Origin: Malacoraja senta
Lineage: Eukaryota
Assembly: GCA_038087875.1 (NCBI GenBank)
Contig: CM075994.1
Coordinates: 7,690,001 to 7,754,000 of the forward strand
Reading direction: 5' to 3'
DNA: 64,000 nt
Numbering within the stretch: the first letter of the stretch is position 1; each line of letters begins with the position of its first letter. The notes beneath the pieces were generated by a model. It was not told the DNA's origin, made no database searches, and saw nothing but the letters and a program-made list of their open reading frames with translations. The position numbers and the translations under genes are program-made. This document shows positions 17,301 to 60,324 of the stretch, piece after piece.

Positions 17301-20300
17301 GCCGTTGAGGCCGCGCCGGGCGGTATACGGCCTCGCTCCGGGCCCAAAAGTCACCAAGTTGGTGCCCCCGGCGGGCGCTGGAATGTCCCGCGGCCATTAA
17401 AGCCGTACAGCATGAAACAGGTCCTTCGGCCCAACTTGCCCACACCGGCCAACATGTCCCGTCTACACTAGTCCCACCTGCCCGTGTTTGGGCCATATCC
17501 CTCCAAACCTGTCCTATCCATGTACCTGTCTAATTGTTTCTTAAACGTTGGGATAGTCCCAGCCTCAACTACCTCCTCTGGCAGCTCGTTCCATAAACCC
17601 ACCACCCTTCGTGTGGAAATGTTACCCATCAGATTCTTATTAAATCTTTTCCCCTTCACCTTTAACCGATGCCCTCTGGTCCTCGATTCACCTACTCTGG
17701 GCAAGAGACTCTGTGCATCTACCCAATCTATTCCTCTCATGATTTTGTACACCTCTATAGGATCACCCCTCATCCTCCTGTGCTCCAAGGAATAGAGATC
17801 CAGCCTACTCAACCTCTCCCTACAGCTCACACCCTCCAGTCCTGGCAACATCCTTCTCTGTAAATCTTCTCTGAACCCTTTCCAGCTTGACAACATCTTT
17901 CCTATAACACGGTGCCCAGAACTGAACACGATACTCTAAATGCGGTCTCACCAACGTCTTATACAACTGCAACAAGACCTCCCGACTTCTACACTCAGTT
18001 GTAGAAGATGAATCTCTTCAATGGGTCTGATCTTTCTTCTTGCTGTTGTTTTCAGTCGAGGGTCCGTGGGGTGCGTTGACGTGCCTGGCCCAATCCGCTA
18101 TCTTCACCTTGCCGAGCCAGGCACTCCGGAATGCGGCACTCTCCCCGGCTGATGTTCACCTCAACGACCCCACCTGCCAGGCTATCCAGAAGGACGACAA
18201 CTGGGTGGTCATCAAAGCGCCGTTCGACGGATGTGGAACCGCTATCATCGTACGTAACTTATGTGTTCATACTTCATACATTCGTAGCTACATACGTTCT
18301 CATAAGTTCATTTAGTCAGATGTTCTTCTGTTCATAAGTTCCTATGTTCATAAGTGATAGGATAACGGGCAGCCATGGTAACGCAGCGGTAGAGTTGCTG
18401 CCTTACAGCGAATGCAGCGCCGGAGACCCGGGTTCCATCCCGACTACGGGCGCTGTCTGTACGGAGTTTGTACATTCTCTCCCAGTGACCCGCGTGGGTT
18501 TCTTCCGGGATCTTCGGTTTCCTCCAACACTCCAAAGACGTACAGGCTTGTAGGTTAATTGGCTTGGTAAATGTACAAAAAAATTGTCCCTAGTGAGTAT
18601 AGGATAATGTTAATGTGCGGGGATCGCTGGTCGGTGTGGACTCGGTGGGCCGAAGGGACTGTTTCCGCGCTGTATCTCTATACTAAACATAACCTAAACT
18701 AAATAAAGTAAACTAAACTAAACTAAACTAAAGGGAGGCAAGCATACAGCACTCCCACTCGTGGGAGAGTCCAGGAACAGAGGGCACAGCCTCAGAATTA
18801 AAGGATGTTCCTTTAGGAAGGAGATGAGGAGGAATTTCTTTAGTCAGAGGGTGGTGAGTCTGTGGGATTCTTTCTCACAGACAGTCAGTGGATATATTTA
18901 AAGCAGAGATAGATAGATTCTTGATTAGTACGGGCATCAGGGGTTATGGGGAGAAGGCAGGAGAATGGGGTTAGGAGGGAGAGATAGATCAGCCATGATT
19001 GAATGGCGGAGTGGACTTGATGGGCCGAATGGCCTAATTCTGCTCCTATCAATTATAACCTTATGACCTTAAACATTGTCCTGTCACACTCATCCATCTG
19101 TGTTAACCCCAGCACATCAACTTTGAATTTAACAATACCTGGTAAAAAACCATAATATTAAATTTAAATACATTCATATTCATCACCTTATCTCAAGTTC
19201 TGTCAAGAGTCTGAAGAAGTCTGTATCAAACACAAGTGGACATAGGTTTACGGTGACCAGGGAAAGATTTAATACAAACCTGAGGGGTTAACTTTTTCAC
19301 TCAACGGGTGATGTACATGGAATGCGGATGCAGGTGAGGCTGATACTATTACAACATTTAAAAGAAACTTGGATAAGAAAGGTTTAGGGAGATGTGGGCC
19401 AAACGCAGGTAAATGGGACCAGATTAAATTAGATGGCACGGTGGAGTTGCTGCCTTACAGTGCCTACTGCGCCGGAGACCCGGGTTCGATCCCGACTACG
19501 GGTGCCGTCTGTACGGAGTTTGTACGTTCTCCCCGTGACCTGCGTGGGTTTTCTCCGGAATCTTCAGTTTCCTCCCACACTACAAAGATGTACAGGTTTG
19601 TAGGTTAATTGGCTTGGGTTTGGATACTTGGTATACAATGGAGAGAATGGAGCGGCTGGGCTTGTACACTCTGGAGTTTAGAAGGATGAGAGGGAATCTT
19701 ATTGAAACATATAAGATTATTAAGGGATTGGACACGCTAGAGGCAGGAAACATGTTCCCGATGTTGGGGGAGTCCAGAACCAGGGGCCACAGTTTAAGAA
19801 TAAGGGGTAAGCCATTTAGAACGGAGACGAGGAAACACTTTTTCACACAGAGAGTTGTGAGTCTGTGGAATTGTCTGCCTCAGAGGGCGGTGGAGGCCGG
19901 TTCACTGGATACTTTCCAAAGAGAGCTAGATAGGGCTCTTGAGGATAGGTCAGGGAATATGGGGAGAAGGCAGGAACGGGGTACTGATTGGGGATGATCA
20001 GCCATGATCACATTGAATGGCGGTGCTGGCTCGAAGGGCCGAATGGCCAACTCCTGCACCTATTGTCTATTGTCTATTGTCTATTGTATAAGTGTAAATT
20101 GCCCCTAGTGTGTGTAGGATAGTGTTCATGTGCGGGGATCGCTGGTCGGCGCGGACTCGGTGGGCCGAAGGGCCTGTTTCCACACTGTATCTCTTAACTA
20201 AACTAAACTAAAACTAAACTAGATTAAATGGGACTAGTTTAGATGGGGCACCTTGGATGAGGTGGGCCGAAGGGCCTGTTTTCCATGCGATGTAACTGTA

Positions 20301-35097: not shown

Positions 35098-36379
35098 GAC
35101 CCGTTGAATTACTCCAGCACTTGATCCTTCTGCAGTAAAGACTGAGACATAGTTTGTCTTTCTAATTGCCTTATGTGGCTGCACATTAACTTTCAGGAAC
35201 ACCTATTTCTCACTGTTTACAAACATGCCCTGTATCTCTGTCAAAGTCACTTTTAAACCCTAACCTATTACGTTAAATAACCCAGTATGGCACGGGCGGT
35301 GCAGCGGTAGAGTTGCTGCCTCAACACGCCTGATCCTGACCACTGTACGGAGTTTGCACGTTCTCCCTGTGACCCGCGTGGGTTTTCTCCGGGTGCTCCG
35401 GTTTCCTCCCACTCCAAAGCCGTGCAGGTTTGTATGTTAATTGGCTTCTGTAAATTGTCCCTGGTGTGTAGGATAGAACTAGTGTATGTGGGGATTGCTG
35501 GTCGGTGCGGACTCGGTGGGCCGAAGGTAAAGATTCGAGCATCTGCAGTTCCTTGTATCTCCTTCATGCTTCTGTACAGAGTCTGAAGAAGGGTGTCAAC
35601 CCGAAACATCACCCATTCCTTCTCTCCAAAGATGCTGCCCGTCCCGCTGAGTTACTCCAGCGTCATCTGTTCATTGGAGACGGCCCCATTGTAATGTAAT
35701 GCCTTTCCGCTGACTGGTTAGCACGCAACTAAAATGCTCTGCACCGTACCTCGGTACACGTGACAATAAACTAAACTGAAGCTGAGATAAGTTCCAAGTT
35801 GGGAACATTTTATGGGGCTAAATGATACAATTGATATTAAACCGCAGTGCAAAAATGAGACAATTTGCAATAAACACTATTTTAATTTAGGAGAATACAC
35901 AAGGAATTGAAAGATTAAAACAATCAAGACAATTATTTCACAATGATCATTACTAACTAAAACATCTATGATTCACTTTAATCTTTCTTTTGTTATTATC
36001 AATATAAAAGCAGCACTTTAAAAAAAAACTTCATTGCTCATTAAAGTGATCTTAGTGGAAAAGTGACATTTTTGTCCAGAGAAAAACATATAAATCAAAA
36101 TTATTAAAAGCCACGAAAGATTATCAGTGACACCCAAGATTTTGTTGATATTTTGATACATCTCACCTAAGTCAAACCTTCTACAACCTTGGATAGGTTT
36201 GTCAATGAGATGAGTGAGCTAGGGGGGAGTTAAGGTTGTGGAATTCTAGCAGATACACTATACAGCTATTTGTGAGTTGTGGGAGCCTAGATTATGGTGA
36301 ATTTGTGCTTTGGCTTCCATTTACTCAAATGTTTTCCTTTTTAACAAAAAAAACACAGCCCAGGCCAGGATACAATCCT

Positions 36380-36519
36380 TCAGTTATGTTGCAAATAGTA
36401 TTTTCTTTGAAGGACTAACGCTGTGAGCAAGCTCAGACACAACGCGGTCAGCGCCCCGAAAATGTAAATATTGTAGCCGGCTTCTTTACGATCTGAACTG
36501 AGGCGTAAATCCCGGTCTC
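36380..36519 (-). CDS. Terminal TM exon of a paralogous ZP-type gene (upstream exons not found in window)
   Basis: Minus-strand acceptor TTTTTTATTCCCTGCACAG. Phase-1 frame reads [45 protein letters not shown], with ALVLQRKYY identical to exon 30805-30941. An AT-rich 3'UTR-like stretch follows (about 35820-36379). Confidence 0.75.
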
Positions 36520-38464
36520 CTGTGCAGGGAATAAAAAAGCGGGAATTAAAGGCAGGAATTTGTGGGGTGTTGACGGTGTGGGGATATTATCGTTGGATTA
36601 AAGGCCTGGCAAGGCATGGGGACGGTTTGAATCCCACCAGAGGAACAGGGTGAGAAATTCGAACATCTCAATAAACTCAAGCATCTAGGTGGTGCAGCGG
36701 TAGAGTTGCTGCCTCACGGCGCCAGAGACCCGGGTTCCAACCCGACCACGGGTGCTGTCTGTACGGAGTTTGCACGTTGTCCCCATGACCTGCCTGGGTT
36801 TTCTCCGGGATCTCCGGTTTTATCCCACACTGCAGACGTGCCGGTTTGTAGGTTAATTGGCTATGGTGTAAATGTAAATGGTCCCTAGTGTGTATAGGAT
36901 TGTGTTAGTGTGCGGGGATCGCTGGACAGTGCGGACTCGGTGGGCCGAAGGGCCTGTTTCCACGCTGTATCTCTAAACTAAAAACTCAACTAAACAAAAA
37001 ATACTAGTCAAATCTGATGGAAAGCTCCCCAGTCTAAATTCTAATACTTACCGCTTGCTATTTTACTACTTGCTACTCAACTACAAACCTATCGAATAGT
37101 GAAAGGCCTGGATAGAGCGGATGTGGAGAGGATGTTTCCACTAGTGGGAGAGTCTAGGACCAGAGGGCACAGCCTCTGAATTAAAGGACGTTCCTTTAGA
37201 TAGATGAGGAGGAATTTCTTTAGTCAGAGGGTGGTGAATCTGTGGAATTCTTTGCCACACTAGGCTGTGGAGGCCAAGTCAGTGGATATTTTTAAGGCAG
37301 AGATAGAGAGATTCTTGATTAGTGCGGGTGTTGGGGGTTATGGGGAGAAGGCAGGAGAATGGGGTTGGGAGGGAGAGATAGATTGAATGGCAGAGGAGAC
37401 TTGATGGGCCGAATGGCCGAATTCTACTCCCATCACTTACAGATAGCTCCCGTGGTCAGGATCGAAGTCGGCTTGGTGCAAATGTAAATTGTCCCTTGTG
37501 TGTGTAGGATAGTGTTAGTGTGCGGGGATCGTTGGTCGGCGCGGACTCGGTGTGCCGAAGGGCCTGTTTCCGCGCTGCATCTCTAAACTAAATTAAACTT
37601 TCACTGATCAATATCTACGATCAAAAAACCTCCCCACTCAATAATCCAGCAATCGGCAAGTCACCAATTCTAACCCTATCGCCCAATGTTCCCAGAACGC
37701 TCGCACTTTCCTATCCACACTAGGGACGATCCATTTTTCTTTACCACAGACAATGAACCTACAAACCTGCACATTTTCGGAGTGTGGGTGGAAACCAGAG
37801 CACCAGGAGAAAACCCACGCAGGTCACGGGGAGAACGTACAAACTACACACACACACACACACGTACAGGCAGCACTCGAGGTCAGGATCGAACCCGGGT
37901 CTTTGGCGCTGTGAGGCAGCAACTCTACCGCTGTGCATAATATTCTAGTTGAAGCAGTCGGGAGAGAAGTAATTGTCCCAATGAAGGTTGCAGAGGAGTT
38001 TCACCAAGGTCCACCTATTTCTCCCCTCAGCTTCCACCTTCACCCCACTCAGCTCACCCTGAGACAGGTACTATTCCAATGTTTAAGAAACATTTAGACT
38101 GGTACATGGATAGGATGTGGGCCAAACGCGGGCAGGAGTGACTAGTGTAGATGGGGCATGTTGGTCGGTGTGGGCAAGTTGGGCCGAAGGGCCTGTTTGT
38201 TAGATGTCGCCCTTGTGGCTAAAGGGATCAGGGGGTATGGAGAGAAGGCAGGGATGGGATACTGAGTTGGATGATCAGCCATGATCATATTGAATGGCGG
38301 TGCAGGCTCGAAGGGCCGAATGGCCTACTCCTGCGCCTATTTTCTATGTTTCTATGTTTGCATGATCATGACTCTCTAGAGAACTAAGGACTCTAACGCC
38401 TCTCGCCAACTTCTACAGACCCACCAAAGACAGTATCTTATCAGGATGTGTCACAGCTTGGTTA

Positions 38465-38908
38465 TGCCCCTGTCCCACTTAGGAAACCTGAACGGAAACC
38501 TCTGGAGACTTTGCGCCTCACCCAAGGTTTCCGTGCGGTTCCCGGAGGTTTTTGTCAGTCTCCTAATGGTCGAAAGTGGTTTCCGCTTCTTCTATATTCC
38601 GGCGATTGGAAGGTAAGACCTTCCACTACCTGCAACCTCCGGCAACCACCTGCAACCTCTGGCAACCACCTTCAACTAGCACCGCAACCGGCTTCGACTA
38701 AAAAATTACCGATTTTTAAAACGGCAACCTATTTTTAGTCGCGGCCGGTTTAGACTTTTTTGAAATAATCGCCGGAACATGGAAGAAGCGGAAACCACTT
38801 TCGACCATTAGGGAGAGTGACAAAAACCTCCGGGAACCGCACGGAAACCTTGGGTGGGGCGCAGTCTCCAGAGGTTTCCGTTCAGGTTTCCTAAGTGGGA
38901 CAGGGGCA
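38465..38908. mobile_element. PIF/Harbinger-like palindromic MITE
   Basis: TIR TGCCCCTGTCCCACTTAGG.../...CCTAAGTGGGACAGGGGCA with long inverted arms and TSD TTA on both sides. Splits a Rex1/Babar fragment. Confidence 0.82.
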
Positions 38909-40009
38909 TTAGGCAACAGCTCTGCCCAGGACTACAAGAAATTGCAGATTTGTGGATGCAGTCCATCGCACAGACCAATCTGCCCACCATCAATCCATCA
39001 ACACTTCACGCTGCCTCAGAAAAGCAGCCAACATAATCAAGGGCTTCTCACACCCCGGCCATTCCCTCTTCTCCCCTCTCCCATCGGACAGAAGATACAA
39101 AAGCTAGAAAGCCCCGTACCGCCACATACCACAACCCACCGGGTAATATAGAGGAACAGCAGTGGCTGGTTTATACCAAAGATAGACGCAGCCTTGCACT
39201 GTACCTCGGTACACGTGACAATAACCTAAACTGAACTAAACTACAAAAATAATACTTTTCAGTGTAATTAAGTTAAATTAACAAAGTTGGTGAACTTGAA
39301 CGGAGACGAGGAAACACTTTTTCACACAGAGAGTCGGTGGAATTCTCTGCCTCAGAGGGTGGTGGAGGCCGTTTCTCTGGATGCTTTCAAGAGAGAGCTA
39401 GATAGGGCTCTTAAAGATAGCGGAGTCAGGGGATATGGGGAGAAGGCAGGAATGGGGTACTGATTGGGGATGATCAGCCATGATCACATTGAATGGCGGT
39501 GCTGGCTCGAAGGGCCGAATGGCCTACTCCTGCACCTATAGTCCATTGATCCTGTGATACCAGCTAAAAAAAAAAAATAATACTACTTTTTAGTTAAATT
39601 AAGTTAAATTAAGTTCAATTAACAAAGTTGGTGATGCAGTGATACCAGCTTTCCAAAGTCTGATGGTCATTTAGCAAGACCTATCATCGACCTCATTGGA
39701 GACCCTCAGATTATCTTCAATCGGGCTTTACTAAACATTATGTTGCACTAAATGTTATTCCCTTTATCATGTATCTGTACACTGTGAATGGCTCGATTGT
39801 AATCATGTATTGTCTTTCCGCTGACTGGATAGCACACAACAACAAAACTTGTCACTGCAGCTTGGTACACGTGACAATAAACAAAACTAAATCTACCCTT
39901 CTTTGCCACCCTATCAACTCCTGCAGCAACTTTCAGGGAGTTATGGACTCGGATCCCAAGATCCCCGCATAACATCAATGCTTTTAAGGGTCATTCCATG
40001 AATTAATTA

Positions 40010-40405
40010 ATTCCATTCACCGCAGGAGATGCAACACCTGTCCCTTCACCTCCCCCCTCGACTCCATCCAAGGAACCAAACAGTCTTTCCAGGTGAGGCA
40101 GAGGTTCACCTGCACCTCCTCCAACCTCATCTACAATATCCGCTGCTCCAGGTGTGGACTCCTGTACATCGGCGAGACCAAGCGCAGGCTCGGCAATCGT
40201 TTCGCTGAACACCTCCGCTCAGTCCGCCTGAACCTACCTGATCTCCCGGTTGCCAAACACTTCAACTCCCCCTACCATTCCCAATCTGACCTTTCTGTCC
40301 TGGGCCTCCTCCACTGTCAGAGTGAGGCCCAGCATCAATTGGAGGAGCAGCACCTCATATTTCACTTGGGTAGTTTGCACCCCAGCGGTATGAACATTGA
40401 CTTCC
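40010..40405 (+). mobile_element. Penelope-like retroelement fragment, GIY-YIG endonuclease region
   Basis: ORF 40093 reads RFTCTSSNLIYNIRCSRCGLLYIGETKRRLGNRFAEHLRSV..PVAKHFN. Confidence 0.88.
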
Positions 40406-40689
40406 CTAACGTTCTCCCCGTGGGTTTTCCCGGGTGCTCCAGTTTCCTCCCACACTCCAAAGACGTGCAGGTTTGTAGGTTAATTGGCTTGGTGTAAATG
40501 TAAATTGTCCCTAGTGTGTGTAGGATAGTGTTAATGTGCAGGGATCACTGGTTGGCATGGACTCGGTGGGCCGAAGGGCCTGTTTCCGTGCTGTCTCTCT
40601 GAACTAAACTAAACTTTCACTGATCAATATCTACAATCAAAAAGCCTCTCCGCACAATAATCCAGCAATCGGCAAGTCACCAATTCTAA

Positions 40690-41019
40690 AAGCCCTGTCC
40701 CACGGTACAAGTTCATTCCAAGAGCTCTCCCGAGTTTTAAAAAAATCAAACCGGTGGTAAGCACGGAGAATGAACGTAGCGGGTACGTCAGAGCTCGTGG
40801 ACGTCTCTTAGCGGCTCGTAACGCTAACGGCAGGTACTCGTGAAGTTTCGCTAACGGCAGGTAAGCACGGGAAGACTCGTGAAGATTTTTCAACATGTTG
40901 AAAAATGTCCGCGAGAGCCCCGAGTACCGACGAGCGGCCATTACTGTAAATCTCCGAGTTCGAATCAGGGCAAACTCGGGAGAGCTCTTGGAATGAACTC
41001 GTACCTTGGGAAAGGGCTA
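40690..41019. mobile_element. PIF/Harbinger-like MITE
   Basis: AAGCCCTGTCCCAC...GGGAAAGGGCTA with TSD TAA. The empty site is visible in the duplicated copy at about 37670. Confidence 0.82.
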
Positions 41020-41788
41020 TAACCCTATCACCCAATGTTCCCAGAACACTCGCACTTTCCTATCCACACTAGGGACGATCCATTTTTTTTTACCACAGAC
41101 AATTAACTTACAAACCTGCACATCTTTGGAGTGTGGGTGGAAACCAGAGCACCCGGAGAAAACCCACGCAGGTCACAGGGAGAACGTAGATACTCCGCAC
41201 ACACACACGCGCAGACAGCGCCCGAGGTCAGGATCGAACCCGGGTCTCTGGCGCTGTGAGGCAGAGCCACACAAAGTTGCTGTGCATAATATTCTAGTTG
41301 AAACACAGTCAGGAGAAAAGTAATTGTCCCAATGAAGGATGCAGAGGAGTTTTCCATTCCTACATTCCCAGTCCTGTCCCACATCATTCCCGCATCACTC
41401 GGCCCTACAGTCACAACTTCCAAATCAAATACTTCACCATTGCTCACATGGACAAGTCAGTCAGTGCGACCCAAACCATCCACCCGTTATAGACACAAAA
41501 TGCCAGAGTAACTCAGCGGGACAGGCAGCATCTATGGAGAGAAGGAATGGGCGACGTTTTGGGTCGAGATCCTTCTTCAGACTGAGAGTCGGGGGAGAGG
41601 GAGATACAGAGATAAGGAAGGGCAAGGTGTGAAAATGAAACCAAACTAAAGTTACACACCAGACCACAATCATTGTGGATTAACCGCAAGGCTGCCTACT
41701 CTCTCACATTGAGCGTGGGATTCACGCATTTCACGAAATTCTCACGCTCTCACGCTGATCACAGAATTTCTCACGCTCAAAAAATGTT

Positions 41789-41796
<8 letters not shown>

Positions 41797-41821
<25 letters not shown>
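41797..41821. repeat. (TA)n microsatellite
   Basis: Direct reading. Confidence 0.9.
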
Positions 41822-42059
41822 CAAATAAATGAAATCACACTCCTCCACACTCACCAATGAGAATAGTTTTCTGTCGGCGGGTTTCCCGTAAAGAACGAGC
41901 AATTGGCTTAAGCCCATCGCACACTATTTAAAATGGCAAAGTGCTGGAGAAACTCAGCGGGTGAGGCAGCATCTATCTCTGAGTCTGACCCTTCTTCAGA
42001 CTCAAGCATTTCACCAGCATTTTTGTCTACCGCTCTATAGATGCTGCCTCACCCGCATT

Positions 42060-42470
42060 CACATTCCCGTGCAGATGGTGTGATAGGTGAGACACGGCGG
42101 TGGTCCCAGCCCCGAGGCACCGCTCACGCCTCCCACCCTCACCTCCGGCGGCTCTGTGTCCGTCGGCCGCTCTGTCCACACCGCATGTAGTTTTAACCCC
42201 GGCCCAGAGCCATGAGCGGACCGGGTGAGTGGGGGGCGTCTCCGGAGCCGCGGGAATGAACCTCGGGCTAAGGCTCCGCTCCCATGCCTGTCCCCCGGGC
42301 CACTGACCCACACCTCCCCTGGACACCCGGGTCACCGACCCTCACCTCCCCCGGACCCCAGCTGGACACAGAGCACCTGGGCCGGCCTGCATTCCCGGGG
42401 AGGGGGGGAGAGAGGGAAATGCTGCCCGGACATCGCCAAGTCTCTGCTCACTCCGGGTGTTGTCACCGCT
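42060..42470. promoter_or_regulatory. CpG-rich island-like segment with ATG mini-exon (42212-42224) and GTGAGT donor
   Basis: GC- and CpG-dense unique sequence containing gagccATGAGCGGACCGG|GTGAGT. It lies inside the TIR-bounded element 41687-43903. Confidence 0.4.
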
Positions 42471-44969
42471 TCACTGACACACACTCACACACAACCTAAC
42501 ACACACTGGCACACACTCTTACACACACACTGGCACACACAATGCTTAAAGGGATATGGGCCAAATGCGGATAAATGGGACTAGTTTAGATGGGGCATCT
42601 TGATCTGCATGGACAAGTTGGGATGAAGGGCCTGTTTCCATGCTGTAAGACTATGACACACTGGAAAAAGGGTGCAATTGCTCTGGAGAGGATCCAGGGG
42701 CGATTTATGAAGATGTTGGCAGGGCTGGAATTTTTTTTCGCTTTGAAGAAAGATTTGATAACTGGGATTGTAATCTCTGCAGCAACAGAGGTGAAGAAAA
42801 GACTTAGTTGAGGTGAATAATATTATGAGAATAGGACCTGTTTCACTTAACAAAGAGTGTAGGAAGGAAGTGCAGATGGTGGTTTAAACTGAAGATAGAC
42901 ACTAAAAGCTGGAATAACTCAGGACAGGCAGCATCTCTGGAGATAAAGAATAGCGGATGTTTCGGATCGAAACCTTCAGACTGAAGAGGTTGAAAACCAG
43001 CCATAAAACACAATGACTGGAGATGTGTGTTATCCAACTAAGGGCAGAAATCAGAATCATGTGTTCTTCTTTATTGACATGACACCATAATAAATATATT
43101 ACAGAAAAAGTACGTTGGTGCAGCGGTAGAGTTGCTGCCTTGCAGCACCACAGACCCAGATTTGATCCTGACTACGGGTGCTGTCTGAACAGATTTTGTA
43201 CATTCTCCTTATGACCACATGGGCTTTCTCTGGATATTCTGGTTTCTCCCACATCTGAAAGAAGTGCAGGTTTGTAGGTTAATTGGCTTCTGTAAATTGT
43301 CCCTGGCGTGTAGGATACAACTGGTGTATGGTAGATTGCTGGTCGGTGTGGACTTGGTGGGCTGAAGGGACTGTTTCCATATATATGTTTTACATATATA
43401 TCTTAATTTCATTGAACCATATATGGTTGAATATGCGCCATTATTTTCGTCTTTCTATAGTCAAAGGGTAAGGTTGATTGATTTATTTGTGCAGAACAGT
43501 GATGGACATCTGACTCCTCTTGCCTTGTTTCTATCTTTTTTGTTTCTCCATATATATGCATAACAGCATGAATTATAATCTGATTTCCATACGTGATTAT
43601 ACTAAGGTCATTCGTGTGCTGCGCCTGTTGATCAGAGCCTGGCTCTACTGCGGAATGTAAATAGGAATGTAATTTAACCCAACCTTATTCATACCTAATC
43701 CAATTTAAAGCATAAATGTTGCATTCAAGTTTCAGTTAAAAGACTCACTACAGTATGTACCAGATTGCATAATTTCAAGCTGAAAAATGCAAAAGCTCCC
43801 TACCCTGGGAGGGGGGACACCACACATCGCACACCCTCCCCCCCTCCCTCAGTCGCTACGTTCCCTTGCAATTTCTCACTCTCAACCAATGTTGGCAGCC
43901 CTGTAACCGTGACCCGATTAATTCACAACCTGCAGAGATATGAACATTACTCAGACTGACACTGAGATAGATTATGTTTAAGAAAGAACTGCAGATGCTG
44001 GAAAAATCGAAGGGTGACAAAAATGCTGGTGAGACAGCGGGTAAGGCAGCATCTTTGGAGCGAAGGAATAGGTGTAGTCTGACCCTTCTTCAGACATCTT
44101 CAGTCTGAAGAAGGGTCTCGACCCGAAACGTTATCTATTCCTTCGCTCCAAAGATGCTGCCTCACCCGCTGAGTTTCTACAGCATTTTTGTCTAGCTGAG
44201 GTAGATTCTTACCAGTGTCGCCATTTTGTAAGATATTGCAGACTGAGACTTCATGTTCTCTTCCAGTGGAAGAAGAACTCAGTAATTCTTGCCCACAAAA
44301 GAGTAGTCAAGGAAGAAGTGAAAATGGACTCTGCTGAATCAGACACAAATCCCAAGAGCACAGGGATAGAGATTGTGGTCTGGTGTGCAACTTCAGTTTA
44401 GTTTCATTTTCACACCTTACCCTTCCTTATCTCTGTATCTCCCTCTCCCCTGACTCTCAGTCTGAAGAAGGGTCTCGACCTGAAACGTCTCACCCATTCC
44501 TTCTCTCCAGAGATGCTGCCTGTCCCGCTGAGTTACTCCAGCATTTAGTGTCTATCTTCGAATAAACCTGCATCGTCAGTTCTTTCCTACACCATCCATC
44601 CATGACATGGCCACAGTTCCCAGTCCAATCCCTCCCGGATCCATTGCTTCCCCTCATCAGACCAGTCTCGCAAGATTCCTGAACCAACAACCCATAGAAT
44701 GTCGAACATAGGACAGAACGGCACGGAAACAGGCCCTTCGGCCCACAATGTCTGTGCCCGACATGATGCCAAGACCAACTCTTATCTTCGTTTTAGCTTA
44801 GTTTAGAGATACAGTGCGGAAACAGGCCCTTCGGCCCGAATCCGCGCCGGCCAGCGATCCCCGCACACTAGCACTAAACCACACACACTAGGGACAATTT
44901 ACAATTATACCAAGCCAATCAACCTGCAAACCTGCACGTCGTTGGAATGTGGGGGGAAACCGGAGCACC

Positions 44970-45888
44970 AGATGACACAAAGCTGGGTGGCAGTGTGAAC
45001 TGTGAGGAGGATGCTATGAGAATGCAGGGTGACTTGGACAGGTTGGGGGAGTGGGCAGATGCATGGCAGATTAAGTTTAATGCGGATAAATGTGAGGTTA
45101 TCCACTTTGGTAGCAAAAACAGGAAGGCAGATTACTATCTAAATGGCGTCAAGTTGGGAAAAGGGGAAGTACAACGGGATCTGGAGGTCCTTGTACATCA
45201 GTCTATGAAAGTAAGCATGCAGGTACAACAGGCAGTGAAGAAAGCAAATGGCATGTTGGCCTTTATAACAAGAGGAATTGAATATAGGTGCAAAGAGGTC
45301 CTTCTGCAGTTGTACAGAGCCCTGGTGAGACCACACCTGGAGTATTGTGTGCAGTTTTGGTCCCCTAATTTGAGGAAGGACATTCTTGCTATTGAGGGAG
45401 TGCAGCGTAGGTTTACAAGGTTAATTCCCGGGATGGCGGGACTGTCATATGCTGAGAGAATGGAGCAGCTGGGCTTGTGCACTCTGGAGTTTAGAAGGAT
45501 GAGAGGGTATCTTATTGAAACATATAAGATTGTTAAGGGTTTGGACACGCTAGAGGCAGGAAACATGTTCCCGATGTTGGGGGAGTCCAGAACCAGGGGC
45601 CACAGTTTAAGAATAAGGAGTAAGCCATTTAGAACGGAGACGAGGAAACACTTTTTCTCACAGTGAGTGCTGAGTCTGTGGAATTCTCTGCCTCAGAGGG
45701 CGGTGGAGGCAAGTTCTCTGGATGCTTTCAAGAGAGAGCTCGATAGGGCTCTTAAAAATAGTGGAGTCGGGGGATATGGGGAGAAGGCAGGAACGGGGTA
45801 CTGATTGGCGATGATCAGCCATGATCACATTGAATGGCGGTGCTTGCTCGAAGGGCCGAATGGCCTACTCCTGCACCTATTGTCTATT
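44970..45888 (+). mobile_element. CR1 LINE, 5'-truncated (RT C-terminal half)
   Basis: ORF 44947..45666 reads DDTKLGG...QGDLDRL.EWA..WQ.KFN..KC...[13 protein letters not shown]. Confidence 0.93.
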
Positions 45889-45889
45889 G

Positions 45890-46040
45890 AAATAAAGTGT
45901 GCGGTATGTTTAAAAAGTGGGATTTTTTTCAGATTTACGTAGTCTCTGAAATTTATGTTGAGGTCGGACTCGAGACTTTTTTACCGACTCCGACTCCAAC
46001 AGCACCAAAATTGCTCCGACTCGACGACTCCACAGTCCTG
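45890..46040. mobile_element. Terminal fragment of a hAT-like element
   Basis: Subterminal CCGACT repeats ending GACTCCACAGTCCTG. The other end was not found. Confidence 0.4.
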
Positions 46041-49000: not shown

Positions 49001-49656
49001 TATTGCCCCCCCCCCCATTGGATGTTTCCATTTTAATTCTTTTTTATAATTTATAATAATGTTGGTAAGAAGTTAACATAATTACATTTCTAAGAGGAAA
49101 TTTTCAACTATTTACAGAATGCAAATGCTGCTTTGGTCCTGGTAGTTTTTGAGAGGGTGCTTTTGAGCCACCATCTCCAGCCACTGCAGTTTGGACAGTG
49201 AGTGTACTCGCACTGTGCTGTTGTGGAAGTAGCTGATGTATTTAGACCCAGTGTTAATATGTTTTTTTACAAATGAAGATGGTGTGGCTTGGAGAAAGCT
49301 TTGGGTGGTGTTCCTTACATGAACTTCCGCCTCGCCTGGAAGGGAGGATGTATAAGGACAAGTGTTCATCTTGTGCGGTTGCGTGGGAAAGATCTGGATC
49401 CTCCATTGACGTATTTATGAGGCTGAAAACAGACATAAAAGGCTGGAATAATGCAGCGAGTCAGACAGCATCTCTGGAGAAAAGGAATAGGTGACGTTTC
49501 AGTTTCTCATTGAAGACTCATGGTATTAATGGTTTAATAATGGTTTTCTTGCTGATATAAAAGTAGCTAAGAATGGAAAGGAACAAGTATATGTGGTTAA
49601 TATGTATTTTGAAATACTATTAACAGTAACTGTTTATCTTTCTTATTTTGTTACAG

Positions 49657-49699
49657 ATCAGTTGAACAGATTTGCAGGATTTGGCATTGGTCTTGCAAG
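49657..49699 (+). CDS. SLC25A46: SLC25A46 exon ([13 protein letters not shown])
   Basis: TTACAG acceptor, AG|GTACTG donor, 43 nt. Confidence 0.92.
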
Positions 49700-52600
49700 G
49701 TACTGTTTATGTTTCAAGTCTCTTATGGAATTCTGAGCTTACTGCTGAGAAAATTAGCATGTTGCATAAAATCAATAAGGATATTTGAAATAACTGAAAA
49801 TTATGTATTGATTACTGAACTGTGAAAGGAAAATTGATGCATTCAAATGTAAATGATTGGAAAGAAAAACTATTGTACAACAAAAGTGTACATTGTCAAA
49901 TGCATGATTCAGAGAGAAATAAAATAAATCCTTTATCTATTTTAATTATTTTATAGTACATTTAGAGATAAATCAATGATGTGCCAAATCTTGCTGGACT
50001 GGAATTGTTACTGACAGTCTCCCTAAATTCATTCTTGTCTGACTCCTTTTGATTCCCCAGAAAATACCATACTGTTGCATGGTTTGAACTGTGAAGCTTG
50101 TTAACGTATGGAGGAGTATCCTAAGTGTTTTGACAGCTTTCAAAGCCAGCAAGTTTAACTAAAGCATCAAAAATATATAAATTAAAAGTGAATGTTACTT
50201 TTTAATAACAGAATCATACAGCACGGAACCAGATCTTTCAGCCTAACTTGCCCATGCCAACCTAGCTGCCCCAGCCACACCAGTCCCACCCACCCGTGTC
50301 TGGTGCATATCCCTCTAATTCAAATGTCTTTTAAATTATGTTATAGTATCTGCCTCAACCACCTCCCATGGCAGCTCATTTCATGTACCCACCACCCTTT
50401 GTGGAAAAGGTTGCCGGTCAGATTTCTATTAACTCTTTCCCCTCACAAATCTATGTCCTCTGGTTCTTGATTCCCCTACTCTGTGTAAAGGGCTCTTTTC
50501 CCCCCCCCTCATAATCCTATACACCTCCATAAGATCACCTCTCATCCTCCGGTATGCCAAAGAATAAAGTCTTAGCCTGCTCAACCTTTACCTATAGCTC
50601 AGGCCTTCAAGACCTGGCAACTTAACAACCAATTTTTTATAGCAGGGTGACCTAAACCTGAACACAATACACTAAATGTGGTCTCACCAATTTCTTGTGC
50701 AACTGTAACATAGCATCCTGACCCTGACTGATGAAGGCTAATGTGTTGAAAGCCCTCTTGACTACCCTATCTACTTGTGACACCACTTTCAAAGAACCAT
50801 GTACCTGGACTCCTAGATCCCTCTGCTGTAAAGCACTCCCCTGACACTTGCCATTCGCTGTGAAGGTCCAGCCCTGCATTGACTTCCCAAAATGCAACAC
50901 CTTGCACTTATCTGCATTAAACTCCATTAACCATTTCTCAGCCCCCTTGCTCAACTGATCATGATCCTGCTGTTATCTTTGATAGCCATTTTGCAATCTA
51001 TAGTACCACCTACTTGAGCGTCATCTACAAACGTACTAATCCTGCCTTCCACATTCTCATCCAAATTATTGATATAAACCACAAACAACAATGGACCCAG
51101 CACTGATCCTGGGGCACACCACTAGTCACAGGCACCCTGTCTGCAAAACTACCTTCCACCATCACCCTCTGGTTCCTTCCACAAAGTCAATTTTTTATCC
51201 TGACAGTTAGCTCTCACTGGATCCTATGAGATCTAATATTCTAGTGCAGCCTACCATATGGAACCGTGTCAAATGCCTTGCTGAAATCCATAAAGACAAG
51301 GTCTACAGAGATGCCATCATCAATCTTTTTGGTTACATCTTCACAAAACTCAATCAGATTTGTTGGACATCACCCCCCACATACAAAACCATGCTAACTA
51401 TCCCTAATCAGCCCCTATCTATCTGAAGGCAGCTTATCTTATCCCTCGGTATACTCTCCAGTAACTTGCCTACCACAGATGTAGGCTCACTGGTCTATAG
51501 TTCCCAGGCTTTTCCTTGCTGCCCTTCCTAAATAGAGGCACAGCATTAGCCACCCTCCAGTCTTCCAGCACCTCACCTGTATTTAATGATGATTCATGTA
51601 TCTCAGTCAGGCCGCCTGCAGTTTCTTTTCTAGCTTCCCACTATGTATTCGGATATATTTGATCAGGCTGGGAGATTTTTCTACCTTCGTACACTTTAGG
51701 ACATTCAGCACCTCCTCGACTGTAATAATGACTGTCTTCAAGAACTTGTTTTCTTCTTTGTCTCACGAAACATGGTTCTGTGGTTCTGTAATTTCCTGTT
51801 GAAATCAAAGGATCTACTCTGTAATTTCTGCCACCTGCCCAAACCAGGATATCTTAGTAAAACCGTGAATGCAGAAATGAAAAAATATGATAATTTAGTC
51901 TTCCAAATCTGTCAATGTGACCAGGACTTTTCTTTTGTCTGTATAGAAGTCCTGATCTTCAGCAACAATCAATCTGTTGGAGGAATTTGGCAGGCCGAGC
52001 AGCATCTCCGTAGGAAAATGCACAGTTGGCATGTTGGGTCGGAACCCTTCACCTGGACCATCTATTTTTCTCCACTGATGCTGCTAACCCACCGAGTTGC
52101 ACTAGCAGATTGTTTGTTGCTCCTGATTCCAGCGTCTGTAATCTCACATGCCTCCAGTCCTGGTCTTCAGTTCAGAATCTCCTATTTCCAATGAGATTCA
52201 GGCTGATAAATTGGTACCTGCCTAAGGCGAGGAGATTTGTAGCTGAGTAAAATATTTTGTTTTTGCATTTTTATCTAATCCTACATTATCTTTTAAAGTC
52301 TCTTCACAGAAAATGTTTTGGCACATCCCTGTATTGTTTTTCGGCGGCAGTGTCAGGTATGATGTTTTGTAAGGTTGTCTTAATGTACTTGCAAAAACCT
52401 ATTGAAATGGAAAGCAGTAGAATGGGGCAGATCTTCCTCCCCATCCTCGGCACTCATACCAAGATTTACCAAAGTATCCCCAGTGAAATCTCCTTTTCCA
52501 GAGTGACAGATTCATTGGGTTCCTCATGGAGTTCAGCAGGACATTGCAATCTTCTGCTGGCCTGCCATCTGAGCCTGTGCTAGGTTAAATCAGGCATAAG

Positions 52601-55600
52601 CACAGCAGTCGCATTGGAGTGAATGAGTGAAATGGCTACTGAGTCAAAAGTAATAACTTTTTATCATTTGGTTAAGGTTCAGTGTTTTAAACTGTTGTTT
52701 GTTAAAAATTTTAATGTTTTCATACATTTTTGGTTGTGTCAAGTATTTCAGAATATTTGTGATCATTAGCATTCAGCCTAATTGCACTGATATCTTTGGC
52801 CGCTGAGTCTGAAGAGGGAAAACGTTCTGGCTGTCAGTGATATTGAGTGGTATATCAGCTTCCTTGTGATAGAAGGCTACAATGGGGCCTTACTGGGGGA
52901 AAAGAAACGGATGCTGTGGTCAAGAGTCTAGCAATTTATCTTTAATGCAACAAAAAAATTGTGTCAATGAAAACAGCTTTCACTTGCATGATGTCTTATG
53001 TGCAAGTAGCAACATGATAAAGACTAGGAAATCTGTTTTTGCAATATAAAATAAGTATTGACCAAGAGTCTTGCTCTTCAAATATCAATGGTATGGTCTT
53101 TCATCGCCATTTTGAGTGGTCAGACTAAGCATCTAATCTGAAATTAGAGTAACAAACTACTAATTTTAAATCAAGTGTCTGGAATAGAAGCCAGATTCTT
53201 TTTGCGTAGAGACAAAAGTTCATAGGTTGAGCTTTGGCTGATACCAAAGAATTACCATGTATTCATGTGTAAGAAGGGACTGCAGATGCTGGTTTAAACC
53301 GTGCATTCATGCAGGCCACGGTGTATCGAAGAGCAAAATTGTAAAAGTCAGTTACTTGATTGGTATATTTGTACTTTAAAATTGTTTATAACTACCATTT
53401 GGAGGGACATGTGAATGGTGTCTTCAATGGTCCGATAATAAAGAACACCACCGGATGTTGCTCTAAAACAAAAGTTATCTATTTCTGTTCTAGACTAGGG
53501 AAATGAGAAACGAGCCTAGCTTTCCTATAACTATTAGAATCTGAAACGTACAATTGAAACGCAAAGAAACTGCACATGTTAGATGAGAAATAAAAATCAG
53601 AAAATGGTGGAAATATTCATTAGGTCAGGCAGTATTTGGAGATAGTGACGCAACTTAATAACTATCCTTGCCATCCTTTGTTAGCCATGGATAAATCATC
53701 GTTCTCAGAGTCCTGAGGAAGGGTCTCAACCCGAAACGTTGCCTATTTCCTTCGCTCCATAGATGCTGCCTTACCAGCTGAGTTTCTCCAGCATTTTTGT
53801 CTACCTTTGATTTTCCAGCATCTGCAGTTCCTTCTTAAACAATTCTCAGTCCTTATTTCTTGTTGGAATATGTCTTTAGTTTAATTATTCCACTGAAAGT
53901 CACTGACCTCAGTAACTGTTTCTCTAAAATGCAGAGTTGCTGAGGTTTTCCAGAACTTGATATGCAATAAATGAATAACCTTTATTAATATGACCATATG
54001 AAATCTTTAACAAATTGCCAAGAAATGGCACGGTGGCGCAGCAGTAGTGTTGCTGCCTTACAGAGCTTGCAGTGCCGGAGACCCAGGTTCGATCCCGACT
54101 ACGGATGCTGTCTGTATGGAGTTTGTACTTTCTCCCCGTGACCTGCATTGGTTGTCTCTGAGATCTTCGGTTTCCTCCCACACTCCAAAGACTGTGGCTT
54201 GGTGTATGTGTAAATTGTCCCTAGAGGGTGTAGGATAGTGTTGATGTGTGGGGATCGCTGGTTGGCGCGGACTTGGTTGGCCGAAGGGCCTGTTTCCGCG
54301 CTGTATCTCTAAACTAAACTAAAGAAACATTTTAAAAACTTGCAGCTGTACATAAAATTATTAATATCAGGTTTGCAGTGTATGAAAAGTTTTTTTTGAA
54401 ATTTCTAACCTCTTCTATTTTCTATTTTAGGTCAATTATCATGCAAAAAATTATCATCTTACTCCTTTCACCGTTGTTAACATAATGTACAATTTCAGCA
54501 AAACACAGGTAGGCCTGTACAACTGTCTTATGCTAGTTAAAAACACAATTTTCCCCACATACTTGCTCCCACTCCAAAAAAAATTGCATTCCACTTTCCC
54601 TGTGTACATTCTCAAGCCATATGACAGGTATCTTCTGGTGCAAATAAGGTTCACTGGCGGAAGTTGTCTATAGGTCTCCAAAGAATAGTGCATTGAATAA
54701 CGGAGGCAGAAAAGAAAGATACTGCATTACTTTGTGGATGACTTTAATTTTCATATAGATTAAGGATGTCAAATTGGCAAAGATAAGCTTGAGAATTTTC
54801 AGGCTTTATTTGGACATTTTCTTTGAAAGTACTTGTGGACCAACCAAGGAATAGACTTATTTTAGAACTCGTGTGTGCAATGAGACAAGGTTTTAATTAC
54901 TGTTTCATGTGTGAGAGCGATTATTATATAATAGAATTATGTATACAACATTCGAGTGAGAATATAATACAACAGATATTAGTGCAGACTAGGAAAATAA
55001 ACTAAAAGGGGAGATGGAGGTTAGCTATTACAAACATGTAGTGAAATATTTCTTAATTCGCAACAAAGACAGTCCATTGAGGAATAATTACTTTCTTAAG
55101 GATTTGTCCATAGCTAACCAAGGGAGATGAGACTGATATCAAATTTAAAGAAAATACATGTAATGCTGTGGAGAATAGTGGTGGGCCTGAAGATTGAAAG
55201 TTTTAAAAATACACTGAAGATGTTTTTAAAAGAAAAATATGAAAATACTTTGAGAGTAACTTAGCAAGAAATACAAAAACAGCTTGTAATATCTTGTTCA
55301 AGTATATAAAAATGTAATGGCTGGTTAAAGTAAATATTTGGTCCCTTGGATCACCAGAGGATGACATGAAATAATAAGATTAGAGGAAATGGAAGAGAAT
55401 TTCAACAAATATTTCCTGTCTATCTTTAAAATAAAAGATACCATAAAACCAAGTATAATAGGCAATCCAGGAAGAAACTTAAAATAATCCCTATTTTATA
55501 GTTACAATTCAATCAAATGACTGATATCCTGAATTTGATGGCCTTAATGACTGGTGATAATGGATGTTATCTTGCAAAATTCCCCATATATTTGAAAACA

Positions 55601-58600
55601 AGAGATTAACATAAATGTAGGAAAGGAGATAGAAAGCTGGAAACTACAGACTGGATTTTTTTAAATATGTCAGTGCGCAAATAATGGAATTCATTCTTTT
55701 TCAAGTTGTAGAATGACATTCAAGTGGAATCAGCATATATTTAAGGAAGGGAATCCTATTTGACAAATGTATTGCTCTTTGAGGATGTAATAAGCACAGT
55801 TGATAAAGAGGACCAGTGGATGCCATTTAGATTTCCAGCAGGTATTTGGTTTGATATGAAAGTATGACATTAGAAGTACCGTAAATCTCCAATAATGCTG
55901 CGTCTAATTGTTCTTATGGTTAGGCATTTGGCACGATCAAAAATAACAATAATTAAATGAGTATATTTCAGCCCAGTCCAGTCAATCATTTTCTGCCATC
56001 AGTGCTATCAAAATAGCAGAAATTGTTGAGCAAAATTCAAAGTGCTGGTCAGGAAACATCTGTAGACGCAATGGGCAAACTTTTTCAGTTCGAAACACTT
56101 TTTCAGAAATCAGTGTTCATACGTTTGTAACTTACCCAAGCGGAATATGGGGTGCCAGTTTGTGTGCCAGTCTCACTCCGCAATGATGTAGGCCAAGGAC
56201 AGAAAGGTCAGTATGGGAACAAGAACAGGAGTTAATGGTTCGCAACTGGGAGCTCCAGCAGGCTTTGTCGAACACTTGCACTCTACCCATTGAAACAGTC
56301 ACCTAGTCTATGCTTGGTCATTCGTATTGGTCTTGGTATGTGCCAAAACATCGGGAGCAACAAAAAAGGAATGGACGGTTGGAAGAGGTGTATGTCGATC
56401 TGTGTCTCACCTAGAGAGGCTGTTGAGATCCTTGAGTGGATGTGAGGGGGGCGGTAGGGACAGGTGTTATATCTGCAGTTGCAGGGGAAAGTGCTTGGGA
56501 ATGAGGTGGGGAGAGGAATGAGGAGCCAAGTTGTGGAGAGAGTGATCTCTACAGAAAGGTGTGAGGGCAGGAAGATGCCACTGATAGTGGGGTCACGTTG
56601 AAGGTGGCAGAAATGTTGGAGAAGGATGTGTTGGATGCGAAGGCTAGTGGTATATTTAGTTTCAGAGTTGCAATTGGCATAGTCTAATTAAGAAACTGCA
56701 GTACAATTTATAGATTTCTCATAATGGAACCACTAGCTTTTCAATCAATACATTAAAAATAACCTACTTGAACTAATGTATTTATGAAAGCATTCTCCTG
56801 ATTTGCTCTTTATAAAGACTCCCTCAAAGTTCTGATTAGATCTTATGTCTCTTCTGCTGCAAGAACAAATCCAGTTCTACAGTCTCTCCCTGTGAATGAA
56901 TTCCCTCAATCCTTATTATTCTGCAAAATCTTCTAAGCTCTCTCCAGAGGGTTAATGTTTCTAAACTGCAGTAGTCCAGAATTGTATGAAATATCCTGCT
57001 ATTGTCTGCCATTAGGCCGCCTGGTATCCGATTACGGGTTCATCCTCAAGTCAAGTCAAGTCTTATTCGTCACCTGCACATAAAGTGCAAGTGAAATGAA
57101 TTTGCCAGCAGCGGTACAATAAAAAAAGAACACACAATACACAATAAAAATGTAACACAAACATCCACCACAGCATTCATCACTGTGGTGGAAGGCACGA
57201 AAATTGGCCAGTCCTCCCCCATTTCCCCCCGTGGTAGGGACCTCAACCCTCCGCAGTCGCCGCTGTGGCCGTCCAGATGTTCAGACGAGGTAAGTCCAGG
57301 TAAGTCCTGAATCATTGCCTCCCCACCGGACACCACGGCTTCAAGTTGGTGTAGGCCGCAGGCCGGCGGTCGAAGATCTAAAGTCCCCGCAGCAAGAAGC
57401 ACCGCAGACTGCAGGGCCGGCGGTCGGAGCTCCTCTCCAGGGATCCCTAGCGAGGGACCCCGCTCCGGATGGCAAGTCCCTGCCGCGCCTGCGGTAGAAG
57501 TTAGCCGCAGGCCAGCGGCCGGAGCTCTTCTCCGGGGTCCCCAACGAGGGATCCCAGGCTCCGGACGCAGCGCCAGCTGGAGCTCTGCAGACCGCCGCGG
57601 GCCAGTGAACAGAGCGCTCCCCTCCAGCGACCCCCGGTGAGGGCTCGCCCGCTCCGCGACGAACGCGTCCTCGCTGCGCCCGCAGCTGAAGCCCCGGGCA
57701 TGTCTCGGAAAGGCTGCACCGATCCTCGATGTTAGGCCATGGGGGAGGCAACATGGAAAAAGTCGCCTCTCCGTGGACTTTTCCCCCTTATCCCCCCACA
57801 CCACCCCCCACACAAGACACACACAGAGAGATTAAAAACACACATTAAGACACACTAAAAAAACAAAAAAAGTAGAAAAAACTAACACGCTGCCGGTTCA
57901 CATCGCCCCCACCGACCAATCCTCTTCCATTCATTGTATCCAAGGAAAATTAAAACGTTTTGGCCAGGTTAGTAACATGGGATACATCCCATCTGGACCA
58001 AGTGAATATGTTGTTTGTGGACTGCCACCTTTTAAGTTCTTTAGTTATTTTTAACTGTCCAAATATCAGTGGTATCAATCAGTGGTTTTACATGATTGGC
58101 CTATTTAAGGTTGATACAAAATACTTGGTACTTTATCTTCATGTCCATTTCCTCTGCAAGAATATATTTTATCTTTGTTTGTCCGACCCAAGCCTTTTCA
58201 CAAATGTGGTTTGAAAGGCAGCCTTAATGTTAGCTGCTGACATATTAATACTTTATATTTGCTCACCTTGCTCCATTTTTGAGGTCTCATAAGTGTTTTC
58301 TACTTTCTAGTTTCTATATTCAATTTGATTCTTAGATACATCAAGGCAAAGTGCTGCTTTGTTTTCTTACTGTTGGAGGAATCCAAGTATTTGAAAGCTG
58401 AATTTGCTGAGTTGCTTCAGCTTTTTGTGTCTATCTTCGGTTTGAACCAGCATCTGCAGTTCTTTCCTACATATTTCTTCCCCTCCACAGATGCTCTCTG
58501 ACTGCTGAGTTACTCCAACACTTTGTTTTGCTCAAGAGTACAATTTATCAAATCACGTCATATCAAGATTGCACCCAAAATCTATATCCATAACAAATCT

Positions 58601-60005: not shown

Positions 60006-60324
60006 GTAGGTCACAGCTGTGTGCTTCGTGAAAATTGCTTCCTTTTATATGGTCATTAATTATAACTGGATAATTATTATTTTTAAACATGATAAACAGT
60101 AGAAATCTATAAATAGGAAGTATGTGATTTGGATGTTTCTTCGAGTGTGGGGGGGGGGGGGGGTGAGGATTAAATTTACTTGCATATTTGGAGAGATTAT
60201 ACAAAATGTTTCTGAATTTAGCAGTATAGTGAAAACTGGGTCATTCAAATTGTAAGTGACAGGCAAAAACCATCTCCCAAGACGAGATTTTAATCGCCTC
60301 CTTTGATGTGGCGGTGAAAACAAG

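What the first reader, a model, noticed from the sequence alone, without database searches (positions are those of the whole stretch)
36380..36519. Hidden minus-strand paralogous TM exon under apparent purifying selection, tail-to-tail with the ZP gene
Seen: a minus-strand exon with a strong acceptor, the same phase (1) and similar length (140 vs 137 nt) to the last exon of gene 1. It encodes GYNIYIFGALT...ALVLQRKYY versus [13 protein letters not shown]...ALVLQRKYY. The 9-aa block is identical although 7 of its 9 codons differ synonymously (gcg tta gtc ctt caa aga aaa tac tat vs gct ctt gtt ctg cag agg aaa tac tac). Inference: this is an old, selected paralog, and QRKYY is a conserved juxtamembrane motif (sorting or phosphotyrosine signal?). 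No matching ZP exons were found on the minus strand up to 64 kb. Either its last intron is >27 kb and overlaps SLC25A46 antisense, or the 5' part was removed by a rearrangement or misassembly.
Basis: partly seen in the sequence, partly recalled or inferred. Interest (0 to 1): 0.72.

Follow-up and report, generated by a model that had tools for sequence, protein, structure and literature searches.

The report
Orphan exon of an assembly-split gene
The lone exon is the ordinary last exon of a membrane-protein gene shared by sharks and rays, and it looks orphaned here most likely because the genome assembly broke the gene, leaving its first five exons on a separate small contig.

Summary
The exon is real as described: 36519-36380, minus strand, 140 nt, phase 1, with ALVLQRKYY identical to gene 1 and 7 of 9 codons differing. 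It is not a mystery. It is the terminal transmembrane exon of 'gene 2', an old paralog of the window's IgGFc-binding + ZP gene, annotated full-length in nine sharks and rays. Stingray proteins map by their first ~635 residues onto five intact exons of the 34-kb contig C1346, and by their last 46 residues onto this exon (78-84% identity). The exon in between was not found in the assembly. SLC25A46 is split as well. Its exon 1 lies on scaffold C1 between TMEM232 and WDR36, 13 kb before an N gap, while exons 2-8 follow in this window and just beyond it. Best reading (0.88): scaffold C18 is misjoined between 41.4 and 49.6 kb, perhaps through the young LINE at 44969-45889. No reads across the join were tested, so a true rearrangement remains possible (0.08). 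The 27-kb antisense intron is rejected. QRKYY is conserved but fits no conserved tyrosine sorting motif. Low interest: it flags an assembly error and a little-described gene family.

The parts
36380..36519 (-). Last (transmembrane plus short tail) exon of gene 2, an IgGFc-binding + ZP paralog; 45 codons plus stop, phase 1
   Evidence: 78-84% identical to the C-termini of three stingray proteins, 51-60% to six shark proteins
36520..36545 (-). Splice acceptor (pyrimidine tract plus CAG) of that exon
   Evidence: Sequence
35881..36379 (-). Likely 3' UTR of gene 2, with ATTAAA hexamers starting at 35982 and 35886
   Evidence: UTR status inferred, no RNA seen
5153..6494 (+). Gene 1 large exon, IgGFc_binding domain (5' boundary uncertain)
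   Evidence: PF17517 E 1.8e-58; donor at 6494
18056..18249 (+). Gene 1 ZP-N exon (194 nt, same length as the C1346 counterpart)
   Evidence: PF23344
21933..22300 (+). Gene 1 ZP-N/ZP-C exon (368 nt, same length as the C1346 counterpart)
   Evidence: PF00100
23482..23747 (+). Gene 1 ZP-C second half with basic RRGR site; the gene 2 counterpart was not found in the assembly
   Evidence: PF00100
30805..30941 (+). Gene 1 last (TM) exon, convergent with the orphan exon, 5.4 kb away
37470..41352 (.). Local duplicate (37470-38001 and 40486-41352, ~90% alike): this stretch is one locus, so the join likely lies beyond 41.35 kb
   Evidence: families D1, D5, D14, D18
44790..46040 (+). Candidate join: SINE-like repeat cut at 44968, young LINE fragment 44969-45889, then the 3' end of a different dispersed element cut at 45890; neither flank resumes on the other side
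   Evidence: suggestive only
49653..60015 (+). SLC25A46 exons 2-5 (about 49653-49697, 52300-52359, 54431-54508, 59902-60015); exons 6-8 lie just beyond the window; exon 1 lies on scaffold C1

Best explanation
The exon is the last, transmembrane-coding exon of a conserved shark-and-ray gene whose first five exons lie intact on contig C1346, and it is stranded here most likely because scaffold C18 is misassembled between 41.4 and 49.6 kb. The true order would be gene 1 (+), then gene 2 (-) with this exon, a missing ZP-C exon and the C1346 exons. The low-GC block carrying SLC25A46 exons 2-8 (window ~45.9 kb to the N gap at C18:7885419) likely belongs in the N gap of scaffold C1, between SLC25A46 exon 1 and WDR36. 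The product is predicted to be a ~767-aa type I membrane precursor: signal peptide, IgGFc-binding (FCGBP_N) domain, ZP module, basic cleavage site, TM helix, 9-aa tail. By analogy with other ZP proteins it would be cut off its anchor and assemble into extracellular filaments that display the FCGBP_N domain (inferred). QRKYY likely acts as the positively charged, aromatic cytoplasmic border of the helix.
For: Shown: (1) One paralog each of the IgGFc exon (57%) and the ZP exon (54%) genome-wide, both on C1346, a 33,935-bp contig with no TM exon and no second ZP-C exon. (2) Three stingray proteins map residues 1-24, 23-38, ~38-447, 447-512 and ~510-635 to C1346 and 723/724-end to this exon. Identity to Mobula is 85/82/89% for the three large C1346 exons and 84% for the orphan. 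(3) Both halves fall in the stingray gene-2 clade (99/98 and 100/100 support). (4) All five C1346 exons are open with canonical splice sites. (5) SLC25A46 exon 1 is absent from C18:7.49-7.95 Mb; its only match is C1:124838801, followed 13 kb later by a 200-N gap, with TMEM232 before and WDR36 after. These genes share 5q22 in human (PMC4298800, passages). (6) The SLC25A46 block on C18 ends at another N gap. (7) Gene 2 and SLC25A46 lie on records of different length in 8 of 10 species that have both. (8) The same gene is broken beside the same exon in the older draft assemblies of two sharks and whole in their later ones. (9) C. punctatum tags chiPu_0020552 (gene 2 type) and chiPu_0020553 (gene 1 type) are consecutive, on contigs of identical length, 107,253 bp. 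(10) The catshark ortholog A0A401Q018 is listed among sperm proteins (PMC11083954 Table 2; id match). ZP mechanism: PMC7155028 (passages).
Against: No read or contig was laid across the join, and the window has no N run, so the join point is inferred. C1346 shares no unique overlap with the window or with C1; its only >=98% hits were ~490-bp multi-copy repeats. No full-length skate gene-2 protein was found. In 2 of 10 species (Hypanus, Hemitrygon) gene 2 and SLC25A46 lie on records of the same length, though their accession numbers are 1,164 and about 3,800 apart. 'Exon D not found' rests on a candidate-limited search. Synteny is read from record lengths and locus tags, not from maps. In the 53-column tail tree the orphan's branch (0.21) is longer than the stingrays' (0-0.024).
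Confidence: 0.88

Rival explanations
1. A true recent rearrangement in this skate or individual moved the ~150-kb block with SLC25A46 exons 2-8 into the last intron region of gene 2, possibly by LINE-LINE recombination, splitting both genes.
For: The window is gap-free across the join. The LINE at 44969-45889 has mismatched flanks, as recombination between two copies would also give. No full-length skate gene-2 protein was found.
Against: It needs two intact, conserved genes broken at once, one a gene found across vertebrates. It does not explain the N gap at the donor site on C1, the N gap ending the block on C18, the loose contig C1346 or the missing exon. All pieces are undecayed.
Confidence: 0.08
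2. The exon is a decayed, orphan duplicate of gene 1's last exon.
For: It is next to gene 1 and has no upstream exons in place.
Against: It is 78-84% identical to stingray gene-2 tails, while gene 1's own last exon is only 32-45% identical to them. It is open with an intact acceptor. It is present on one contig in three related organisms with no listed stop or indel inside it (40 of 56 substitution rows and 12 of 24 indel rows were shown).
Confidence: 0.02
3. Gene 2 has a very long last intron that runs antisense through SLC25A46.
For: Only that the upstream exons are not in the window.
Against: No gene-2 exon lies in the 200 kb downstream. The 5' exons are on C1346. SLC25A46 lacks its own exon 1 here.
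Confidence: 0.02

Closest known systems
Elasmobranch 'IgGFc-binding protein-like' RefSeq models, gene-2 type (XP_062903549 Mobula hypostoma, XP_059826660 Hypanus sabinus, XP_072920540 Hemitrygon akajei, XP_038670945 Scyliorhinus canicula)
   Same: Same domains (PF17517, PF23344, PF00100), same order of parts, same tail; 78-89% per exon to the three stingrays.
   Different: Here the gene is in two pieces with one exon missing from the assembly. The names are automatic annotation, not tested function.
ZP-module membrane precursors (ZP1-4; PMC7155028, passages read)
   Same: Signal peptide, ZP-N/ZP-C, basic cleavage site, single TM, short tail.
   Different: The N-terminal part is an FCGBP_N domain rather than extra ZP-N or trefoil domains. 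Cleavage and polymerisation are untested.
FCGBP (IgGFc-binding protein; PMC4948705, passages read)
   Same: N-terminal FCGBP_N domain.
   Different: No VWD-C8-TIL repeats in the Pfam lists of the orthologs; carries a ZP module and a TM helix instead. Not an FCGBP ortholog by architecture.

Membership tests
Elasmobranch IgGFc+ZP gene 2 (ortholog group) | Terminal exon groups with gene-2 tails, not gene-1 tails | tested here: met
   in the 10-row gene-2 clade (99/98) and with the three stingrays (100/100); only 53 columns
Elasmobranch IgGFc+ZP gene 2 (ortholog group) | Upstream exons present and orthologous | tested here: met
   Five open exons on C1346; N-part tree with stingrays at 99/98
Elasmobranch IgGFc+ZP gene 2 (ortholog group) | Second ZP-C exon present and all exons on one molecule | tested here: inconclusive
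   Exon not found in the assembly; no read-level link tested
ZP-module membrane precursor | ZP-N and ZP-C domains | tested here: met
   Gene 1 exons hit PF23344 and PF00100; gene-2 orthologs carry PF00100 and PF23344; C1346 holds ZP-N and the first half of ZP-C
ZP-module membrane precursor | Basic cleavage site and external hydrophobic patch before the TM | tested here: inconclusive
   RRKR/RKKR followed by LSQGP in 5 of 5 gene-2 orthologs aligned; this part lies in the missing exon here; calling LSQGP the patch is recalled, not from a call
ZP-module membrane precursor | Single C-terminal TM and short tail | tested here: met
   Hydropathy 2.25 over 19 residues, then QRKYYLQHN and stop
ZP-module membrane precursor | Cleavage, release and filament formation | not testable with these tools
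   Inferred from PMC7155028 passages and general knowledge
FCGBP | FCGBP_N domain at the N-terminus | tested here: met
   PF17517 E 1.8e-58 for gene 1; present in orthologs
FCGBP | Multiple VWD-C8-TIL units | tested here: not met
   Absent from the Pfam lists of the 7 elasmobranch proteins; the model leaves no room for them
Tyrosine-based sorting signal YxxPhi (recalled definition) | Bulky hydrophobic residue three places after a tail tyrosine, conserved | tested here: not met
   0 of 9 gene-2 tails and neither skate tail fit; only the Narcine gene-1 tail (YLHL) does (tails printed)

The most novel reading that the evidence does not exclude
A real, recent transposition of a ~150-kb block has split both SLC25A46 and the IgGFc-ZP gene 2 in this skate, leaving an intact orphan membrane-anchor exon and an SLC25A46 that has lost its first exon to another chromosome.
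Probability: 0.08. Interest if true: 0.6.

Novelty: new member of a known kind. Interest (0 to 1): 0.15.

Why it matters
As it most likely stands, it matters mainly as a correction. It marks a misjoin in scaffold C18, places contig C1346, and shows where SLC25A46 exons 2-8 belong, so both genes would be mis-annotated as truncated in this assembly. A lesser by-product: sharks and rays keep a pair of FCGBP_N + ZP membrane proteins, with relatives in frogs and sturgeon. My three searches for this architecture returned no paper that describes it, and one member turns up in a catshark sperm proteome. If the join were real, a vertebrate living with SLC25A46 split across chromosomes would be surprising.

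Tried and rejected
Sequencing runs: no RNA holder listed; this says nothing about expression. No lay of reads or contigs across the join was obtained, so the join is untested at read level. Contigs of four runs laid on 35900-36680: a second sample of the same coded organism is identical over 35900-36600; three other organisms cover the exon. The 7 listed sites inside it are 3 synonymous and 4 amino-acid-changing, none a stop; too few to show selection within skates, and 16 of 56 substitution rows and 12 of 24 indel rows were hidden. The GC-rich patch at 42.0-42.5 kb reads ATG AGC GGA CCG G|gtgagt, in phase with SLC25A46 exon 2; I considered it a replacement first exon and dropped it because it is part of a dispersed repeat (all 40 scored places of 2432 candidates match at E <= 1e-10, best hits 78-89%). 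No unique overlap was found between C1346, the C1 contig end and the window. The stingray-type small alternative SLC25A46 exon could not be placed. A search with the exon alone found only the stingray cluster, 1 of 152 candidates. An own-genome search with the exon alone missed even gene 1's tail, so its blanks are weak. MHC linkage: suggested by neighbouring TRIM, Ig-domain and complement-like exons, but the one supplement file of PMC10751288 held none of IgGFc, FCGBP, SLC25A46, TDP2; PMC12227049's single 'IgGFc' passage is unrelated. The first gene 1 model had three exon boundaries off and was redone. No structure prediction was run.

Full report
Observation. On the minus strand a pyrimidine tract and CAG precede 140 nt (36519-36380) that read in phase 1 as [49 protein letters not shown]. 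Gene 1's last exon is 30805-30941, 137 nt, phase 1. ALVLQRKYY is shared and 7 of 9 codons differ; 0 of 50 shuffled windows gave any 9-residue match. Gene 1 has an IgGFc_binding exon, three ZP exons and the TM exon.

Where the rest of the gene is. Searching the genome with gene 1's IgGFc exon and with its middle ZP exon gave one paralog each, both on the minus strand of contig C1346 (57% and 54%). C1346 is 33,935 bp. It holds five open exons with canonical splice sites (67, 45, ~1224, 194 and 368 nt) and ends 6 kb after the last, with no second ZP-C exon and no TM exon. A protein search with its large exon returned 22 proteins of 698 aa or more. Seven were elasmobranch IgGFc + ZP proteins, five at 72-86% and two at 50-55%. 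The stingray proteins map by residues 1 to ~635 onto the five C1346 exons and by their last 46 residues onto the orphan exon. Identity to Mobula is 85, 82 and 89% for the three large C1346 exons and 84% for the orphan; for Hypanus 84/78/86/78; for Hemitrygon 86/82/85/80. Trees of the N-terminal part (19 rows) and of the tail (17 rows; two relatives without an alignable tail were left out) put C1346 and the orphan with the stingray proteins, while gene 1's N-terminal part groups with Narcine. So the duplication is older than the shark-ray split, and the orphan is the last exon of 'gene 2'. The ~87 residues between were not found: a search with the stingray stretch returned only gene 1's copy at 54% and two weak hits.

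Why it is stranded. SLC25A46 is broken in the same interval. Exons 2-8 run from window 49653 to C18:7769425, but exon 1 is absent from 464 kb of C18. Its single match is C1:124838801. On C1 it follows TMEM232, is followed after 13 kb by a 200-N gap, and then by WDR36. TMEM232, SLC25A46 and WDR36 share 5q22 in human (PMC4298800, passages; the exact order is recalled). On C18 the block from ~45.9 kb of the window to the N gap at 7885419 is mostly lower in GC than its flanks. The simplest account is one assembly error: the contig carrying SLC25A46 exons 2-8 was fused to the contig carrying gene 1, displacing the missing exon and C1346. The gene is prone to this. In older drafts of Scyliorhinus torazame and Chiloscyllium punctatum it is broken after the same 368-nt exon, and it is whole in later records of the same species. 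In C. punctatum the gene-2 and gene-1 pieces carry consecutive tags on contigs of identical length, which fits the neighbouring pair seen here. Gene 2 and SLC25A46 lie on records of different length in 8 of 10 species; in Hypanus and Hemitrygon the lengths are equal, with distant accession numbers.

The join point is inferred. A local duplicate ties 37.5-41.35 kb together. The best candidate is the young LINE at 44969-45889. On its left a SINE-like repeat stops at 44968 and does not resume. On its right a different dispersed element starts mid-body at 45890, and its upstream part is not in the window. Collapse of two LINE copies would give this pattern, but so would real recombination between them. 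No reads were laid across it, and C1346 shares no unique overlap with either scaffold.

Selection and QRKYY. Between the paralogs, synonymous sites are near saturation (pS 0.91, pN 0.43, 34 codons), so the 7-of-9 pattern shows age and constraint at some time. Continued constraint is better shown by the orphan matching stingrays as closely as the C1346 exons do. Among close relatives the data are thin: 7 listed sites, 3 synonymous, no stop, no listed indel, with part of the tables hidden. QRKYY ends the helix in 9 of 9 gene-2 orthologs, and similar motifs occur in the frog proteins aligned. No YxxPhi pattern is conserved, so a basic, aromatic membrane border is the likelier role (inference from general knowledge).

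How the product likely works. Signal peptide, FCGBP_N domain, ZP-N/ZP-C, a basic site (RRKR or RKKR in 5 of 5 aligned orthologs), TM and short tail match the layout of ZP precursors (PMC7155028, passages). Release from the anchor and filament assembly are inferred, not shown. The catshark ortholog A0A401Q018 is row 59 of the sperm-protein Table 2 of PMC11083954 (passages and table rows; id match), so the gene makes protein in a shark. It is not an FCGBP ortholog by architecture: it lacks the VWD-C8-TIL units described in PMC4948705 (passages). Three searches found no paper describing the FCGBP_N + ZP layout; subscription journals and preprint supplements were outside their reach.

Verdict. Real exon, ordinary identity, apparent orphan state most likely an assembly artefact (0.88); true rearrangement 0.08; long antisense intron 0.02; decayed duplicate 0.02. 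Novelty: new member of a known kind. Interest 0.15.

Noticed in passing
G000:C1:124838801-124852267 and window 49653 to C18:7769425: SLC25A46 is split over two scaffolds: exon 1 on C1 ahead of an N gap, exons 2-8 on C18. C1 is 396 Mb, so the scaffolding may be over-joined elsewhere too.
   Followed up: yes
window 5153-5275: Gene 1's ATG at 5153 may not be the real start: the stretch reads like a pyrimidine tract with an acceptor near 5275, and the paralog has two small upstream exons. No upstream exon was identified.
   Followed up: no
P0188 (XP_038671270, Scyliorhinus canicula): The catshark gene-1 type model is 2768 aa with six IgGFc-binding stretches ahead of one ZP module: either a real domain expansion or merged tandem genes.
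   Followed up: no
L008:5076-5082 (C1346:15076-15082, minus strand): The acceptor of gene 2's large exon is a tandem CAGCAG; stingray isoforms differ by one residue here (768/769 and 793/794 aa), which suggests a conserved three-base splice choice.
   Followed up: partly
G000:C18:7557868-7679650 and 7906932-7907264: Neighbours are Ig-domain exons, a UBA-like exon (TDP2-like by recall), a RING...PRY/SPRY TRIM gene and, past the gap, a complement C3/C4-type MG1 exon, an immune-gene-rich, possibly MHC-related region.
   Followed up: partly
window 41686-43900: A ~2.2-kb dispersed element with a GC-rich core that mimics a promoter and first exon; many copies at 78-89%; family not identified.
   Followed up: partly
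window 38464-38909 and 40691-41018: Two short elements with long terminal inverted repeats (MITE-like), the second inserted into one copy of the local duplicate.
   Followed up: no
window 39988-40410: A fragment of an endonuclease-like reading frame (Penelope/GIY-YIG-like by recall); a copy of the same repeat ends the C1 contig at the gap, but reversed and only 87% alike.
   Followed up: partly
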